DNA of 64,000 nt from Escherichia phage vB_EcoM_Lh1B, in the sequence record OK428535.1. One strand, written 5' to 3'. The notes beneath the pieces are model-generated. The model was not told where the DNA came from. It saw only the letters and a list, made by a program, of their open reading frames with translations, and did no database searches. The position numbers were made by a program, and so were the translations under genes. Of this stretch, positions 3,840 through 52,738 are shown piece after piece; position 1 is the stretch's first letter, and each line of letters starts with the position of its first letter.

Positions 3840-3870
3840 TTTCAGATATATATTACCTAGGTGATAGAAG
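3840..3870 (+). promoter_or_regulatory. early-promoter-like element, copy A (TTTCAGATATATATTACCTAGGTGA)
   Basis: Near-identical copies at 32872 and 52662; contains TATATTAC; lies about 45 nt upstream of an ATG. Confidence 0.5.
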
Positions 3871-3915
3871 ACAATCTATCAACTCAATCGACTATTAATC
3901 TAAAGGAGTATTACC

Positions 3916-5774: not shown

Positions 5775-5815
5775 CCCCCTCTTACCTTCGGGTAAGAGGG
5801 TTTTATATTTATTTT
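5775..5815 (+). terminator. rho-independent terminator (UUCG loop)
   Basis: CCCTCTTACC-TTCG-GGTAAGAGGG followed by TTTTAT. Confidence 0.7.
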
Positions 5816-5835
5816 CCGAAAAGAAAATAAAAGGC

Positions 5836-10866: not shown

Positions 10867-10889
10867 TGAGATAGATATTATCTACGTGA
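10867..10889 (+). promoter_or_regulatory. promoter-like palindromic element, copy G (GAGATAGATATTATCTACGTGAA)
   Basis: Same motif family; upstream of gene 10899. Confidence 0.4.
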
Positions 10890-32159: not shown

Positions 32160-32783
32160 ATGTTAAACTCAGTGGCGCTGGATGGTCCAGATTTTTCTGG
32201 CAAATCAACACTCGCGAAAATGATTCAAGCGATGTTGCGCTCCGCTGGCGTTAATGTCATCATCGTCAATCACCCGACGAATACCACTGAAGCCGGTATT
32301 AGTGCACGTTCTCTGGTTATCCAGCACGCTTCTAACGAACGCATTGCTAAAGCGATGTGTCTGGATTTCCAATACACGATGGATTTCGTTGTACCAGAGC
32401 ACGATGTCGTTATTTTTGACCGTTTTTGTCAATCGACTATTGTCTACCAGGGCGTCGATGGTAAAGGGGAAGTTTTCCGTTCGCGGGTATTAGACCACAT
32501 TAACGCACCAAAGCTTTACGTGGCAACCGATGTATCTTACGAAACCGCCACAGAACGCTTTAAGAAGCGCGTAGAGGCACAAGGTAAGAACTGGGATGAT
32601 GAGGTACTGACAGCGAAGTATCTGCGCTCACAGACCGATTGGGACGCCTTACGCGACCATTACCGTTTTGCTTTCCACATCACCACAGATGGCGGCGATA
32701 AGTTCCCGCTGATGCGTGTTACGGCTGACGACGATATAGCCTTACAAGCCGCCCGTATCGTTGAACGTATTCTGGCAGGTTAG
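32160..32783 (+). CDS. thymidylate kinase-like P-loop nucleoside monophosphate kinase
   Basis: P-loop GPDFSGKST and DRF...STIVYQG resemble Tmk Walker A and DRY/LID region; ATG 32160 preferred over the GTG at 32118. Confidence 0.5.
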   Translation: MLNSVALDGPDFSGKSTLAKMIQAMLRSAGVNVIIVNHPTNTTEAGISARSLVIQHASNERIAKAMCLDFQYTMDFVVPEHDVVIFDRFCQSTIVYQGVDGKGEVFRSRVLDHINAPKLYVATDVSYETATERFKKRVEAQGKNWDDEVLTAKYLRSQTDWDALRDHYRFAFHITTDGGDKFPLMRVTADDDIALQAARIVERILAG

Positions 32784-32789
32784 TTGTAC

Positions 32790-32828
32790 CCCTCTTACCT
32801 TCGGGTAAGAGGGCATTGTCTTTTTTTA
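32790..32828 (+). terminator. rho-independent terminator (UUCG loop)
   Basis: CCCTCTTACC-TTCG-GGTAAGAGGG followed by T7; same hairpin as at 5777. Confidence 0.7.
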
Positions 32829-32871
32829 CAGATCAGAACAGTCCTATGCTTTTTGCTTCCAGTCCACTAAA

Positions 32872-32902
32872 TTTCAGATATATATTACTTAGGTGAGAGT
32901 TG
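32872..32902 (+). promoter_or_regulatory. early-promoter-like element, copy B
   Basis: TTTCAGATATATATTACTTAGGTGA plus conserved leader into the RBS. Confidence 0.5.
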
Positions 32903-32947
32903 CTCGTAAACTCTCTAATCGACTATTAATCTAAAAGGAGTATTCTA

Positions 32948-33313
32948 ATGCGTTTTAAACATCAAACCGTTGTGTTGGCAAAGAAAGCATTTCTGGTTCG
33001 TCTCTCTTACATTATTNCTCGTGTCACTGCGAAGGATGTTACGCAGAAAGACATTGCATTGTTGGTAGGCNGNTNNCCNNCACAAANNTNTGNGNTTAAA
33101 AATGAACGCGAGAAAGCCGTGACTATCGAAACTCTGATGCGTGTTGCCGATACACTGCGCCTGAATTACGAAATCGTTTACCGTTCCATCAACGGCAAAT
33201 GCCGCCATAGCTTCAAAATTGAATCCTGCATCGACTACATGAATAACTGTCCTATCCGGGTACGAGAAACAGGACTTAAAGTCATGGCACGTAAACCTTC
33301 TGCAGTGATGTAG
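32948..33313 (+). CDS. XRE-family helix-turn-helix transcriptional regulator
   Basis: VTQKDIALLVG ... TIETLMRVADTLRLNYEIV fits the Cro/C1-type HTH pattern; N-containing. Confidence 0.5.
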   Translation: MRFKHQTVVLAKKAFLVRLSYIIXRVTAKDVTQKDIALLVGXXXXQXXXXKNEREKAVTIETLMRVADTLRLNYEIVYRSINGKCRHSFKIESCIDYMNNCPIRVRETGLKVMARKPSAVM

Positions 33314-33324
33314 GGAGCAAACGT

Positions 33325-33711
33325 ATGAATTGGTATGTGAGCGGTATCACCCGTCGTGTAATGACGGAAGAGGATGATCGATGTAAACATCTTAAAGTGG
33401 GGTCTATAGCTCCACGTTATACGGCAGAGTGCGACCCATGGGGCCGCGAAACGTATTACATGTGCGAGAACTGCTGGGAAAAANTGCNGGNNNAAATNGN
33501 NGNTGAAGAAGTGGTNTGCGNCGATTGCAAAGGTACCTTCCCGAAACGGGATACTGTTGNGNGGAAATGGCACGACTTTGACCCCAGTCAAGGGGATAAA
33601 GAACTTTGTATCTGTAATAACTGCGTGTCTTTACCGACACATTTAAACCGTGTAGAGAATGACCGTCGGGCATTTGAACACGACTTTCCAGAAGCAGCTT
33701 TCTGGGATTAA
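33325..33711 (+). CDS. Cys-rich putative zinc-binding protein (128 aa)
   Basis: Several CxxC-like pairs (CENCW, CxDC, CICNNC); Ns present. Confidence 0.45.
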   Translation: MNWYVSGITRRVMTEEDDRCKHLKVGSIAPRYTAECDPWGRETYYMCENCWEKXXXXXXXEEVXCXDCKGTFPKRDTVXXKWHDFDPSQGDKELCICNNCVSLPTHLNRVENDRRAFEHDFPEAAFWD

Positions 33712-34247
33712 CTAGTATAACCCTTAAGGAGTATATCATGGCGAAGGCCCCTAAAACTGTAGCAAAAGATTCAATGGCAAGCAACGCGATTAAAGCCACA
33801 AAAACGCGTACTACCGAATTTCCACGTTCACCTACCATTCCTAAACCGGATGTAATTGTACCAATCAGTGAACGTCTGAAAACGATTCACATCGAACGTG
33901 AATTTCCGATTGACCTTGGTCAGGAAATCGTTGCGGTTAATCTTGGTAGTGATGTCCGCTTTACTATCTACAAGGGATTAACTAGTGTAAACCTTAAGGA
34001 GTATATCATGGCGAAGGCCCCTAAAACTGTAGCAAAAGATTCAACGGCAAGCACCGCGACTAAATCTGCAAAAACGTCTACTACAGAATTTCCACGTTCA
34101 CCTACCATTCCCAAACCGGATGTAATTGTACCAATCAGTGAACGTCTGAAAACAATTCACATCGAGCGCGAATATCCGATTGACCTTGGTCAGGAAATCG
34201 TTGCGGTTAACCTTGGTAGCGACGTACGCTTTACCATCTATAAAGGC
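33708..34247 (+). repeat. tandem direct duplication, 2 x 270 bp
   Basis: Units 33708-33977 and 33978-34247 are near-identical, each including RBS, ATG and first 80 codons. Confidence 0.85.
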
Positions 34248-34664
34248 GCGCATCTGAACAACATGGTGCTAACCCGTGGTGATGAAGTTATCGGTCTGTC
34301 TCGTTACGACACGCAAATCGAAAACATCTATCCGGTGTTTGCAGTAGCGATGTTGCGTTTGTTCATGCAGGATAAAGCCGACCTTTGTGGTCAGCTTGCG
34401 GGTATGGCGGATCGTGTTGGTCATATTCTGCCGACGCTGGTGAAACTGTACCCAGTTACGATTGACGTGGCGTTTACTACTGTAGACAACAACCACGGTT
34501 ATATCGTGCTGACCAAAGACGGTAAAGTTATCGCTGGTAATCTGACTGATAACGAAGTGCAGAAGCATATGGACAAATTTGCGTTCATGGTGAATCGCTT
34601 GGCGCACGTCAGTGTCAAACATTCTGAAACTTGGACGACGCTTGTCTCCAAACCTGAACTGTAA
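33738..34664 (+). CDS. hypothetical protein with duplicated N-terminal 80-aa module (308 aa; alternatively 34008-34664)
   Basis: Copy 1 reads in frame through the duplicated RBS into copy 2. Confidence 0.5.
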   Translation: MAKAPKTVAKDSMASNAIKATKTRTTEFPRSPTIPKPDVIVPISERLKTIHIEREFPIDLGQEIVAVNLGSDVRFTIYKGLTSVNLKEYIMAKAPKTVAKDSTASTATKSAKTSTTEFPRSPTIPKPDVIVPISERLKTIHIEREYPIDLGQEIVAVNLGSDVRFTIYKGAHLNNMVLTRGDEVIGLSRYDTQIENIYPVFAVAMLRLFMQDKADLCGQLAGMADRVGHILPTLVKLYPVTIDVAFTTVDNNHGYIVLTKDGKVIAGNLTDNEVQKHMDKFAFMVNRLAHVSVKHSETWTTLVSKPEL

Positions 34665-34668
34665 TCAT

Positions 34669-34698
34669 TAAGGGGTCTTCGGACCCCTTAATTTTTTG
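34669..34698 (+). terminator. rho-independent terminator (UUCG loop)
   Basis: TAAGGGGTC-TTCG-GACCCCTTA followed by TTTTTT. Confidence 0.7.
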
Positions 34699-34723
34699 TC
34701 TTTTTACGCGTTATCCTCATGTT

Positions 34724-35752
34724 GTGACAGCATTACCTTTTGAGGGCATTACAATGAAAACTGTGGCTAAATTGTTCCGCAGCAGCATTCGCTCTGCCGA
34801 GTTCCAAAATAACGTCGGTACCGATACTGTACGAGCACGCCGCCTAAAAGAGTTTCTAAAGGACGAGACTTATTCTGTTTACGTGGTACGGAATAAAGAA
34901 ACCTGGGAGGGTTATTTAGTGGCCACCTATCGACACGGTGACCCTACACTAACCTGTCACTATTTTGAGGAGTTTGTACCTGGGGCATTCGATAAAGTTG
35001 GTTTAGCCCTTGTGCTCGACCACACAGGCTTCGAATATATGTCGTGCCCGGCACCTACTGGCGATGTTGAACAAAAACTGGTCGAAAAAGGGTTTGTTCT
35101 TTCAGATATCGTCTGGGCATGTCATTCTAAACTGTTTGATAAAGTAATAACTGCATCGGAAATCAAGATTATTTCTGGTGACGCATACGCAGAACTTTCC
35201 AAGGACGACAAAGACGTTATCCTGAATCTGGTCAGTGGTGCAATTTGCGAAGAGCTAGAGTACGATGTGCGCGGCCACTATACGCACATTGGTCCGTTAG
35301 CAGAAACAGTAATAGCAAGAATTCAGCACGCTAATGTGGAAACCGCGATTNGGCNNNACGGGCGTGATATCGTCGGCATTGCCCAAATGCGTTTGGTCGC
35401 GCCAGGCGTCGTTGAACTTTCTGGCTTGACGGTTGCACCTACGCATCGTAAACGTGGCATTGGTCGCCGGTTAATGGGCGCGCTATTCGATTTCGCACAA
35501 CGTCACTCCGACCAAGTCTATATTGAAACAGCTGCTGATAATAATCCGGCAAATCATCTGTATGGCAACATTCTGCGTTGCAAACAGGTACTGCGTACGC
35601 TAACGTTGAAACGCGACCCNGAGCTTATNAGNTGGAAANGNGNAAAAGGGAACCGCGCCGACCGAGTGCTGAAAGAAGAACCTNGCCTCCCGGTGGAGAC
35701 CAACCCCAGACCAACGATTAATGACATGTTTCAATCTGGCATGAGAGGATAG
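34724..35752 (+). CDS. two-domain protein with C-terminal GNAT acetyltransferase domain
   Basis: HRKRGIGRRLMGALFDFA and NNPANHLYGN in the C-terminal third. Confidence 0.55.
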   Translation: MTALPFEGITMKTVAKLFRSSIRSAEFQNNVGTDTVRARRLKEFLKDETYSVYVVRNKETWEGYLVATYRHGDPTLTCHYFEEFVPGAFDKVGLALVLDHTGFEYMSCPAPTGDVEQKLVEKGFVLSDIVWACHSKLFDKVITASEIKIISGDAYAELSKDDKDVILNLVSGAICEELEYDVRGHYTHIGPLAETVIARIQHANVETAIXXXGRDIVGIAQMRLVAPGVVELSGLTVAPTHRKRGIGRRLMGALFDFAQRHSDQVYIETAADNNPANHLYGNILRCKQVLRTLTLKRDXELXXWKXXKGNRADRVLKEEPXLPVETNPRPTINDMFQSGMRG

Positions 35753-36586: not shown

Positions 36587-37390
36587 ATGCAACTATTTAA
36601 TCTATACGGTATGGACAAAAATGACCTGACCGTAGAGTTTAGTGGTCGATTGACCACCTTGGGGCAACTCCGTGAACGGATTCAAGATTTGCGACCCGTC
36701 GCAGACCAAGAAGATGATCATTGGTTAGTGTTGAGCAATAGCGGTCGTGCGCAAATGTATTTTCGTGGATGTCGTTCAGGTATTGTTTACTACATCTACG
36801 AGTTGCACGTGCTTTCCGAGCCCCTGTTCCACGAGTGGAAGCGTTTAACGCGACTCCTGGAAGTGCAGATGCTTGATATTACCTGTTTTCCGCATGACAC
36901 CGAACATGCGGCATTGTACCAACGTCTGGGGTTCGAAGCTGTAACGAAGCGTGTGGAGATTACTGTCAGTCCGAAATACGGTTTTACGTCAGACCCATCG
37001 GTTGTCCCGTTGGAGACATTGTCATTAGAACAAACCCAAGATGTTTGCTATCTAATGCGACCCNCNCTAAAAGACGCAGGAACGCGTGAGATGTTGGGTG
37101 AATTAGCAAATGGTTTTGTCTCTGCGTTCGTGGGGTTGCGCGGTCAGAAACCGTTTTCATTAATGCTTTATAAGGAGTTCCCGAAGAGCATCATTACTGA
37201 GCAATTCTGCTGCCAAACTTTTGACCCGATTGCCTACTCGGTAGAGTTTCTAAAACACCACCACGCCATTTTGCATTTGGCGGGACAGAAAGGTAAGAAG
37301 GTCAACATGGGTGTTGCGATAGAGCACGAGTTTCCTTCTATCGAAGGGTTAGAGTATCGTGTAATCACGCATCACTACACCCTTGCGTAA
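36587..37390 (+). CDS. hypothetical protein (267 aa), possible acetyltransferase-like fold
   Basis: ORF; weak LYQRLGFE motif only. Confidence 0.5.
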   Translation: MQLFNLYGMDKNDLTVEFSGRLTTLGQLRERIQDLRPVADQEDDHWLVLSNSGRAQMYFRGCRSGIVYYIYELHVLSEPLFHEWKRLTRLLEVQMLDITCFPHDTEHAALYQRLGFEAVTKRVEITVSPKYGFTSDPSVVPLETLSLEQTQDVCYLMRPXLKDAGTREMLGELANGFVSAFVGLRGQKPFSLMLYKEFPKSIITEQFCCQTFDPIAYSVEFLKHHHAILHLAGQKGKKVNMGVAIEHEFPSIEGLEYRVITHHYTLA

Positions 37391-48120: not shown

Positions 48121-48146
48121 CAGATAGATGTTATCTCAGTGAACCT
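48118..48146 (+). promoter_or_regulatory. promoter-like element, copy F (TTTCAGATAGATGTTATCTCAGTGAACC)
   Basis: Same motif family; about 55 nt upstream of gene 48200. Confidence 0.45.
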
Positions 48147-52661: not shown

Positions 52662-52692
52662 TTTCAGATATATATTACTTAGGTGAGAGTTA
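52662..52692 (+). promoter_or_regulatory. early-promoter-like element, copy C
   Basis: TTTCAGATATATATTACTTAGGTGA plus conserved leader into the RBS. Confidence 0.5.
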
Positions 52693-52738
52693 ACCATTAA
52701 CTCTTATCTAATCGACCATTATCTTAAGGAGTTTTAAC

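What the first reader, a model, noticed from the sequence alone, without database searches (positions are those of the whole stretch)
32948..33711. HTH regulator plus Cys-rich protein pair expressed from an early-promoter leader
Promoter copy B drives an XRE-type HTH protein followed 11 nt later by a 128-aa protein with several CxxC-like pairs, likely a zinc ribbon. A DNA-binding regulator and zinc-finger partner under an early promoter is a candidate switch for the transition from early to middle transcription.
Basis: partly seen in the sequence, partly recalled or inferred. Interest (0 to 1): 0.45.

Follow-up and report, generated by a model that had tools for sequence, protein, structure and literature searches.

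The report
Jumbo-phage HTH and zinc-protein operon
This is an ordinary early-region operon of an SPN3US-like giant Salmonella phage: it encodes a small Cro/C1-type DNA-binding protein, already annotated as a putative regulator, and an unrelated two-zinc-site protein from a large unnamed giant-phage family, and nothing shows that the two work together as a transcription switch.

Summary
ORF A (32948-33313, 121 aa) and ORF B (33325-33711, 128 aa) are real, conserved genes 11 nt apart. They are orthologues of Salmonella phage SPN3US gp101 and gp102.

- **The unit** is a three-gene operon (A, B, gp103 homologue) between two intrinsic terminators. Two tandem phage-type promoter motifs precede it. 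One is an early-type motif, AGATATATATTAC-N6-G, close to the phage AR9 early consensus. Just upstream lies a second, TTTAC-N15-TATG, which resembles phiKZ non-virion RNA polymerase promoters.
- **The pairing** is confined to three related genera. Nine distant B loci have no A-like neighbour, and A occurs without B in Klebsiella and Aeromonas phages.

The early-to-middle switch idea is untested and weakened. Interest is low to moderate. The closest category is a new member of a known kind.

The parts
32790..32828 (+). Intrinsic terminator of the upstream thymidylate kinase gene: stem CCCTCTTACC / GGTAAGAGGG, loop TTCG, then a T-run.
   Evidence: The same hairpin sequence is kept in the Parshik and pEa_SNUABM_29 loci and reused at window 5776.
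32825..32848 (+). Promoter-like motif TTTAC-N15-TATG. The predicted start is G 32848. It resembles phiKZ non-virion RNA polymerase promoters.
   Evidence: 7 copies on the + strand and 0 on the - strand, against a shuffle mean of 0.23 and maximum of 2. TTTTTTAC-N13-CCTATGC is kept with exact spacing upstream of A in EC001, Parshik, pEa_SNUABM_9 and pEa_SNUABM_29. The analogy is to TATG at the start site and a TAC/AT-rich element near -22 in phiKZ (PMC7598289; PMC8244752).
32872..32895 (+). Early-type promoter motif TTTCAGATATATATTAC-N6-G ('copy B'). The predicted start is G 32895.
   Evidence: It is close to the AR9 early consensus AAATATATATTAT-N6-G. The same motif lies upstream of A orthologues in Stratton, Parshik, pEa_SNUABM_9, pEa_SNUABM_29 and Aeromonas phage ZPAH34.
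32895..32915 (+). Hairpin at the predicted 5' end of the transcript: GAGAGTT, loop GCTCGTA, AACTCTC.
   Evidence: Folds at -8.8 kcal/mol starting at the first base after N6. The stems differ but still pair in the other copies and in orthologous loci.
32916..32947 (+). Conserved leader TAATCGACTATTAATCTAAAAGGAG, including the ribosome-binding site AAGGAG at 32935-32940.
   Evidence: Shared by the copies at 3846 and 52668 and by the Stratton and pEa_SNUABM_29 A loci.
32948..33313 (+). ORF A, 121 aa: an XRE/Cro-C1 helix-turn-helix protein with a C-terminal extension of about 45 aa. Orthologue of SPN3US gp101.
33325..33711 (+). ORF B, 128 aa: predicted two-zinc-site protein (C20, H22, C47, C50 and C65, C68, C97, C100, plus H106 and R109). 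Orthologue of SPN3US gp102.
33738..34664 (+). Third gene of the operon, 308 aa, a homologue of SPN3US gp103 (phrog_32024, unknown function). A 270-nt tandem duplication lies at its 5' end (33704-33973 / 33974-34243).
34667..34700 (+). Intrinsic terminator that closes the three-gene unit: 11-bp stem, loop TTCG, T-run.

Best explanation
The window comes from an SPN3US-like (Seoulvirus) nucleus-forming jumbo phage. The finding is the first two genes of a terminator-bounded three-gene operon, the orthologues of SPN3US gp101, gp102 and gp103.

Shown here:
- A is a strongly conserved Cro/C1 (XRE) helix-turn-helix protein.
- B is a member of a large unnamed jumbo-phage family with eight invariant Cys/His residues.
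- The two genes are 11 nt apart, and B has its own ribosome-binding site.
- Two phage-specific promoter-like motifs lie in tandem upstream.

Inferred by analogy with AR9 and phiKZ:
- The AGATATATATTAC-N6-G motif is read by the injected virion RNA polymerase in the first minutes of infection. The transcript starts at G 32895 with a protective 5' hairpin.
- The TTTAC-N15-TATG motif lets the phage's second (non-virion) polymerase keep expressing the unit later.

Inferred from the family:
- A binds DNA sequence-specifically, probably as a dimer, and most likely acts as a repressor-type regulator. Negative feedback on early-type transcription units is the most ordinary role for such a promoter-proximal XRE protein. 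Its target was not identified here.
- B folds around two zinc ions as two sequential modules, residues 1-60 and 61-125. It acts independently of A through a protein or nucleic-acid contact that remains unknown.

The two proteins are operon neighbours by shared ancestry, not an obligate pair.
For: - **Identity of the phage and genes:**
- **B:** H22, C47, C65, C68, C97, C100, H106 and R109 are invariant, and C20 and C50 are at least 90% conserved, in 63 members of about 30-45% identity. AlphaFold pLDDT is 82. The family has 230 representative clusters.
- **B's modules:** the C-terminal half occurs alone, and after insertions of about 170 aa. This argues for two sequential modules.
- **Operon limits:** terminators.
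- **Promoter motifs:** strongly over-represented and strand-specific, and conserved at orthologous loci in three genera and in ZPAH34.
- **Independence of A and B:**
Against: - No transcript, DNA-binding or metal data exist for this phage in the literature searched.
- The promoter classes are assigned only by resemblance to AR9 and phiKZ.
- No conserved operator-like inverted repeat was found at A's own promoter apart from the terminator and leader hairpins. The dyad AGATA-N5-TATCT, seen in other copies, is poor at A's own copy.
- In nucleus-forming phages the DNA is enclosed in a vesicle and then in a protein shell (PMC13282480). A cytoplasmically made HTH protein would need import to reach phage DNA, and nothing here shows that.
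- The C-terminal 45 residues of A are modelled poorly.
- A-to-B adjacency with 3-11 nt gaps persists down to about 32-35% identity. That still allows a functional link within that clade.
Confidence: 0.55

Rival explanations
1. One reading: A and B together form a regulatory switch. They are made early, bind phage promoters, and turn transcription from the early to the middle class.
For: - The promoter is early-type and A has a DNA-binding fold.
- What recognises phiKZ middle promoters is unknown, because the purified non-virion polymerase does not use them in vitro (PMC7598289).
- A-to-B adjacency is kept in three genera.
- A middle-like motif lies next to several early-type motifs in the window.
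Against: - No A homologue was detected in phiKZ or any other Pseudomonas phage.
- A and B have different phyletic distributions.
- None of 9 distant B loci has an A-like neighbour.
- The change of polymerase and of compartment already explains much of the temporal switch.
- Nothing links B to transcription beyond a non-significant Rpb12-like match at E 0.09.
Confidence: 0.1
2. Aca-like arrangement: A is an autorepressor that damps a very strong early promoter. The downstream genes, B and the gp103 homologue, are host-takeover or anti-defence effectors.
For: - A is the promoter-proximal gene in 6 of 7 lineages examined.
- Structural neighbours include HipB-type autorepressors, restriction-modification controller proteins and Aca10.
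- Many B-family members carry long acidic C-terminal tails.
- One distant B locus lies near a Tad2-like anti-defence gene.
Against: - No conserved operator dyad was found at A's own promoter.
- B and gp103 have no match to known anti-defence or defence families.
- The window's own B lacks the acidic tail.
Confidence: 0.2
3. A acts on host DNA rather than phage DNA. It would repress or retarget host or prophage genes in the cytoplasm while the phage genome is shielded.
For: The phage genome is enclosed in a vesicle and then a protein nucleus, whereas early proteins are translated in the cytoplasm (PMC13282480). A is restricted to phages of enterobacteria, Aeromonas and Stenotrophomonas, which fits a host-specific target.
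Against: No host target motif was sought or found. The very strong conservation of A across phages infecting Salmonella, E. coli, Proteus and Erwinia fits a phage-encoded target at least as well.
Confidence: 0.15

Closest known systems
XRE / Cro-C1 family helix-turn-helix regulators (Pfam HTH_3 PF01381, HTH_37 PF13744; for example PDB 2a6c, 2o38, HipB, P22 c2, 434 repressor)
   Different: A carries a conserved C-terminal extension of about 45 residues with no detectable relative and low model confidence. No operator was identified. It is encoded by a strictly lytic nucleus-forming phage that does not use the host RNA polymerase.
Zinc ribbons and treble-clef zinc fingers (Pfam DZR_2, Zn_ribbon_8; Rpb12/RPABC4; CxxC-X29-CxxC domains of papillomavirus E6)
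   Same: B has CxxC knuckles at 47-50 and 65-68, and a CxxC-X28-CxxC module at 65-100. Weak profile matches fall on exactly these stretches.
Early promoters of virion RNA polymerases of jumbo phages (AR9 AAATATATATTAT-N6-G; phiKZ AT-rich element at about -10)
   Same: The core ATATATATTA(C/T), 6 nt, then G. The copies are strand-specific, intergenic, and placed at the head of clusters of non-structural genes.
   Different: The class is assigned here by resemblance only. This phage has two sub-types, ATATATATTAC and ATAGAT(G/A)TTATC. Some copies have a 5' hairpin and a shared leader.

Membership tests
XRE / Cro-C1 HTH (Pfam HTH_3, PF01381) | Sequence match to the family profile above the curated gathering score | tested here: met
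   The unmasked orthologue, identical to the window protein at all unmasked residues, scores 31.4 bits against a cut-off of 23. HTH_26 scores 27 against 22 and HTH_37 scores 27 against 27. The window protein itself, with the HTH masked by N's, scores below cut-off.
XRE / Cro-C1 HTH (Pfam HTH_3, PF01381) | Lambda-repressor-like helical bundle fold | tested here: met
XRE / Cro-C1 HTH (Pfam HTH_3, PF01381) | Sequence-specific binding to a DNA operator | not testable with these tools
   No conserved operator-like dyad was found at its own promoter. This needs EMSA, footprinting or ChIP.
Classical zinc ribbon (for example Pfam DZR_2, Zn_ribbon_8, Rpb12) | Profile match above the curated cut-off | tested here: not met
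   DZR_2 scores 15.5 bits against a cut-off of 27, and Zn_ribbon_8 scores 12.9 against 34.4. The best among 63 members is E 3e-4, in 7 members only. Rpb12 is matched at E 0.09.
Classical zinc ribbon (for example Pfam DZR_2, Zn_ribbon_8, Rpb12) | Two CxxC knuckles on beta-hairpins that share one zinc ion | tested here: inconclusive
   C47xxC50 and C65xxC68 are invariant or nearly so. In the model, however, C47/C50 sit at the start of a helix. Large insertions between C50 and C65 in P0081 and P0054 argue that these two knuckles belong to different modules. Coordinates could not be inspected.
Zinc-binding protein (general) | Four conserved Cys/His ligands per site | tested here: met
   C20, H22, C47, C50, C65, C68, C97 and C100 are invariant or at least 90% conserved over 63 members at about 31% mean column identity. 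Metal content itself is not testable here.
Virion-RNA-polymerase early promoter of jumbo phages | Over-represented AT-rich motif centred near -10, upstream of early operons | tested here: met
   6-7 copies on the + strand, none on the - strand, against 0.005-0.055 expected. They lie ahead of non-structural gene clusters. The core is close to the AR9 consensus.
Virion-RNA-polymerase early promoter of jumbo phages | Transcripts start there within minutes of infection and without new protein synthesis | not testable with these tools
   No transcript data for SPN3US-like phages were found in the library.
Obligate two-gene module (A with B) | Co-occurrence and adjacency across the whole range of both families | tested here: not met
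   The genes are adjacent in Seoulvirus, Erskinevirus and Machinavirus. B occurs without A in Ralstonia, Vibrio and Shewanella phages and in six metagenomic loci. A occurs without B in Klebsiella and Aeromonas phages.

The most novel reading that the evidence does not exclude
The B family, which is widespread in giant phages that encode their own multisubunit RNA polymerases, could be a zinc-binding accessory factor of the phage transcription machinery. It might be Rpb12-like or a promoter-class specificity factor. In the SPN3US/Erwinia clade it might work with the HTH protein A to recognise the TTTAC-N15-TATG (middle-type) promoters, whose recognition factor is still unknown even in phiKZ.
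Probability: 0.06. Interest if true: 0.75.

Novelty: new member of a known kind. Interest (0 to 1): 0.3.

Why it matters
How nucleus-forming jumbo phages time their gene expression is only partly understood. In phiKZ the factor that reads middle promoters is unknown (PMC7598289). An early-made DNA-binding protein is a reasonable candidate to test, and SPN3US is a genetically tractable model. The more useful result here concerns gp102. It belongs to a large, completely unannotated zinc-protein family found on jumbo-phage-sized contigs, and that family could be defined and studied. As it stands, A is already annotated as a putative regulator in GenBank, and no evidence ties either protein to a switch. 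The finding is therefore mostly a tidy annotation rather than a surprise.

Tried and rejected
- **Pfam, NCBIfam and PADLOC scans of B and the gp103 homologue:** nothing at or near any cut-off.
- **Sequence and profile searches of B against PDB chains:** only non-significant zinc-finger matches.
- **Foldseek of the B model against viral models:** only uncharacterised jumbo-phage homologues.
- **AlphaFold-database fold search:** the library was not available.
- **Fusion partners in long B-family proteins:**
  - No Pfam domain was found, apart from a borderline GAAD hit in P0166 (23.2 bits against a cut-off of 23.6).
  - P0133 has a fragmentary HTH_17-like N-terminus (E 0.049, 18 of 51 profile positions). 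Both were judged too weak to use.
- **A conserved operator dyad at A's promoter:** none found. The leader inverted repeat was considered as an operator. It was rejected because its sequence differs between close orthologues that have the same recognition helix (pEa_SNUABM_29 against the window) while pairing is kept. That fits an RNA hairpin better.
- **Rfam scan of 32700-34800:** nothing.
- **Literature searches for SPN3US gp101 or gp102, or an SPN3US transcriptome:** nothing relevant.
- **Minus-strand ORFs overlapping A and B** (87, 118 and 144 aa): disregarded, because the substitution pattern and family matches support the + strand frames.

Full report
**What the window is**

The 1.3 kb around the finding matches 39 phage records. 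All are about 240-kb SPN3US-like jumbo phages of Salmonella, E. coli, Proteus and Erwinia, at 91-97% identity. The scattered N's in the window count as mismatches in those figures. In Salmonella phage SPN3US the two ORFs are SPN3US_0101 ('putative transcriptional regulator') and SPN3US_0102 ('hypothetical protein'). In E. coli phage EC001 they are MGA_104 and MGA_105. SPN3US is one of the phages shown to build a phage nucleus and to encode its own virion and non-virion multisubunit RNA polymerases (PMC13282480; PMC7598289).

**Checking the observation**

ORF A is 32948-33313 (121 aa) and ORF B is 33325-33711 (128 aa), both on the + strand. The gap is 11 nt and holds GGAG 7 nt before B's ATG.

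Both are genuine genes. They match PHROG families at E 2e-41 and 1.8e-52. Against EC001 and SPN3US, A has 19-23 synonymous and no non-synonymous differences. B has 12-13 synonymous and 6 non-synonymous.

The window carries 259 N's in 63 small clusters. One cluster falls on the turn and recognition helix of A, and another on the helix after C50 of B. That explains why the window's own A scores only E 0.025 against Pfam.

**ORF A**

The orthologue, identical at every unmasked residue, passes Pfam HTH_3 (31.4 bits, cut-off 23), HTH_26 and HTH_37.

- An AlphaFold model built from six orthologues has modest confidence (pLDDT 63; 73-88 over the HTH). It shows the expected helices at 2-29, 33-40, 44-51 and 60-73.
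- The C-terminal 45 residues or so are conserved among orthologues. They are poorly modelled and match nothing.
- The three cysteines in that tail are not conserved outside Seoulvirus.

**ORF B**

No Pfam, NCBIfam or PADLOC family is matched. The PHROG family it matches has unknown function.

- A profile search of 1.8 billion representative proteins finds 230 clusters at E of 1e-3 or better, and 195 at 1e-10 or better.
- A second database search returns only 'hypothetical protein' names. Many hits lie on contigs of 80-240 kb.
- Over 63 diverse members with a mean column identity of 31%, the invariant residues are H22, C47, C65, C68, C97, C100, H106 and R109. C20, C50, M1, N2, W3, E35, D37, G40, D67, W80, G90, D91 and D113 are at least 90% conserved.
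- C36 and C95 of the window protein are not conserved.

Eight ligand-type residues fit two zinc sites.

The C-terminal half (C65...R109) occurs alone in 80-91-aa proteins. In P0081 and P0054 it follows insertions of about 170 aa placed after the C50 helix. This suggests two sequential modules, C20/H22/C47/C50 and C65/C68/C97/C100, rather than a single ribbon formed by the two central CxxC pairs. That assignment is an inference, because model coordinates could not be inspected.

B is therefore very probably a zinc protein. It is not a member of any named zinc-ribbon family.

**The transcription unit**

A terminator follows the upstream thymidylate kinase gene (stem 32790-32813, T-run to 32828). 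Another follows the third gene (stem 34667-34692). Between them lie A, B and a 308-aa homologue of SPN3US gp103 (phrog_32024, unknown function). The unit has three genes, not two.

TTTCAGATATATATTACTTAGGTGAGAG occurs at about 3840, 32872 and 52662. A wider family, AGATA[TG]AT[AG]TTA[CT], has 6-7 copies on the + strand and none on the - strand, against 0.005-0.055 expected.

The core ATATATATTAC-N6-G is very close to the experimentally mapped early consensus of phage AR9, AAATATATATTAT-N6-G (PMC5312081). It also fits the general description of jumbo-phage early promoters as an AT-rich block of about 10 nt near -10 (PMC7598289). The copies sit ahead of clusters of small non-structural genes, often just after structural genes.

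The same motif lies upstream of A's orthologues in Stratton, Parshik, pEa_SNUABM_9, pEa_SNUABM_29 and Aeromonas phage ZPAH34. The early-promoter reading is thus well supported by analogy, though not demonstrated.

A hairpin begins exactly at the predicted start (32895-32915, -8.8 kcal/mol). Its stem sequence differs but still pairs in other copies and in orthologous loci.

**A second promoter-like motif**

Directly upstream, TTTAC-N15-TATG (32825-32848) overlaps the terminator's T-run.

- The pattern occurs 7 times on the + strand and never on the - strand. The shuffle mean is 0.23 and the maximum is 2.
- TTTTTTAC-N13-CCTATGC is kept with exact spacing, but with a free spacer sequence, upstream of A in EC001, Parshik, pEa_SNUABM_9 and pEa_SNUABM_29.
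- It combines two features described for phiKZ non-virion polymerase promoters: TATG at the start site, and a TAC/AT-rich element near -22.

I infer that the operon is also expressed after the early phase. PHIKZ054 has been reported to have both an early and a middle promoter.

**Are A and B partners?**

In the phage collection, tblastn finds each gene in a different set of records:

| Gene | Records | Hosts or genera (number of records) |
|---|---|---|
| B | 67 | Salmonella 33, Erwinia 22, Ralstonia 5, Vibrio 2; one each for Escherichia, 'Enterobacteria', Proteus, Bacillus and Shewanella |
| A | 84 | Salmonella 33, Erwinia 27, Aeromonas 12, Klebsiella 5, Serratia 2; one each for five further genera |

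- The order thymidylate kinase, A, B is kept in Seoulvirus, Erskinevirus (Stratton) and Machinavirus (Parshik, pEa_SNUABM_9), with gaps of 3-11 nt down to about 32-35% identity. In pEa_SNUABM_29 a 151-aa gene is inserted between them.
- RSF1, pVp-JHP1101, FishSpeaker and six metagenomic loci carry B with no A-like gene within 1.5-5 kb.
- Klebsiella KPN8 and Aeromonas ZPAH34 carry A with no B next to it.

The adjacency is a shared-ancestry feature of one clade with conserved local synteny. It is not a module that travels together.

**Mechanism and its limits**

The best-supported account is as follows.

- The operon is transcribed from the first minutes by the injected polymerase, and probably later by the second polymerase.
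- A is a sequence-specific DNA binder, most plausibly a repressor-type regulator.
- B is an independent two-zinc protein that acts through a protein or nucleic-acid contact.

The target of A is unknown. No conserved operator dyad lies at its own promoter. The dyad AGATA-N5-TATCT lies within five other promoter-family copies, perfect at two of them (6 matches in the window with up to one mismatch, one of them outside the family, against 1.2 expected). It is poor at A's own copy.

Any action on phage DNA requires entry into the vesicle or nucleus, which is untested.

The switch hypothesis remains possible. It gains no support here, and phiKZ runs the same programme without a detectable A homologue.

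**Comparison with what is known, and novelty**

Overall this is a new member of known kinds. Interest is low to moderate and rests mainly on the size and anonymity of the B family, and on the tandem promoter arrangement.

Noticed in passing
window 2446, 2821, 10823, 32825, 39044, 48153, 57723 (+ strand): A second promoter-like motif, TTTAC-N15-TATG, has 7 copies on the + strand and none on the - strand (shuffle mean 0.23). Three copies lie next to an early-type motif (10823/10871, 32825/32878, 48124/48153). It resembles phiKZ non-virion polymerase promoters.
   Followed up: partly
window 3863-3880, 32895-32915, 52685-52705; L012-L015 and L010 upstream of the A orthologues: A hairpin begins at the predicted first transcribed base of the ATATATATTAC-type promoters. 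Its stem sequence differs between copies and between phages but stays paired: GATAGA/TCTATC, GAGAGTT/AACTCTC, GACATTGA/TCAATGTC, GAGCATT/AATGCT. This is probably a stabilising 5' stem-loop on early mRNAs.
   Followed up: partly
window 3886-3905, 32918-32940, 52712-52735: The three ATATATATTAC-type copies share a conserved leader, AATCGAC(T/C)ATTA(A)TCT(A/T)AAGGAG, ahead of unrelated first genes: a 47-aa membrane-like protein, the HTH protein, and a 148-aa protein. The same leader is kept at the A locus of Stratton and pEa_SNUABM_29. Its function is unknown.
   Followed up: no
window 33704-33973 and 33974-34243: A 270-nt tandem duplication (92% identity) starts in the last codons of ORF B. It duplicates the ribosome-binding site, the ATG and the first 90 codons of the gp103 homologue, in frame. 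The gene is 308 aa here and in EC001 but 218 aa in SPN3US. The internal copy keeps its own start signals.
   Followed up: partly
whole window; for example 33017-33095 and 33484-33562: 259 N's lie in 63 small clusters scattered through the window. Within the finding they mask the HTH turn and recognition helix of A, and residues 54-60, 66, 79 and 80 of B. Family scans on the window proteins alone therefore under-score.
   Followed up: yes
window 5776-5825 and 32789-32838; L013 1360-1383: The same terminator hairpin, CCCCTCTTACC-TTCG-GGTAAGAGGG, is used after two different genes in the window. It is identical after the thymidylate kinase gene of Erwinia phage Parshik, although the flanking genes are only about 35% identical.
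   Followed up: no
proteins P0081, P0054, P0051, P0133, P0166 (B-family relatives from metagenomes): Several relatives have unusual architectures. P0081 and P0054 have an insertion of about 170 aa between the C50 helix and C65. P0051 is a 929-aa protein with the domain at its C-terminus. Some proteins of 80-91 aa carry the C-terminal module alone. P0133 has an HTH-like N-terminal fragment. P0166 has a borderline GAAD adaptor domain. Many members have long acidic C-terminal tails.
   Followed up: partly
L015 2181-2636 (Erwinia phage pEa_SNUABM_29): A 151-aa gene of unknown function is inserted between the A and B orthologues in this Seoulvirus relative, so the 11-nt junction is not obligatory.
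   Followed up: no
window 10869-10883 and 48122-48136 (perfect); 3844, 31175, 39723 (one mismatch): The ATAGAT(G/A)TTATC sub-type of the early-type motif contains the dyad AGATA-N5-TATCT. The window holds 6 matches with up to 1 mismatch (one, at 37039, lies outside the promoter family), against 1.2 expected. A dimeric DNA-binding protein could recognise this symmetry. The copy in front of the HTH gene itself fits it poorly.
   Followed up: partly
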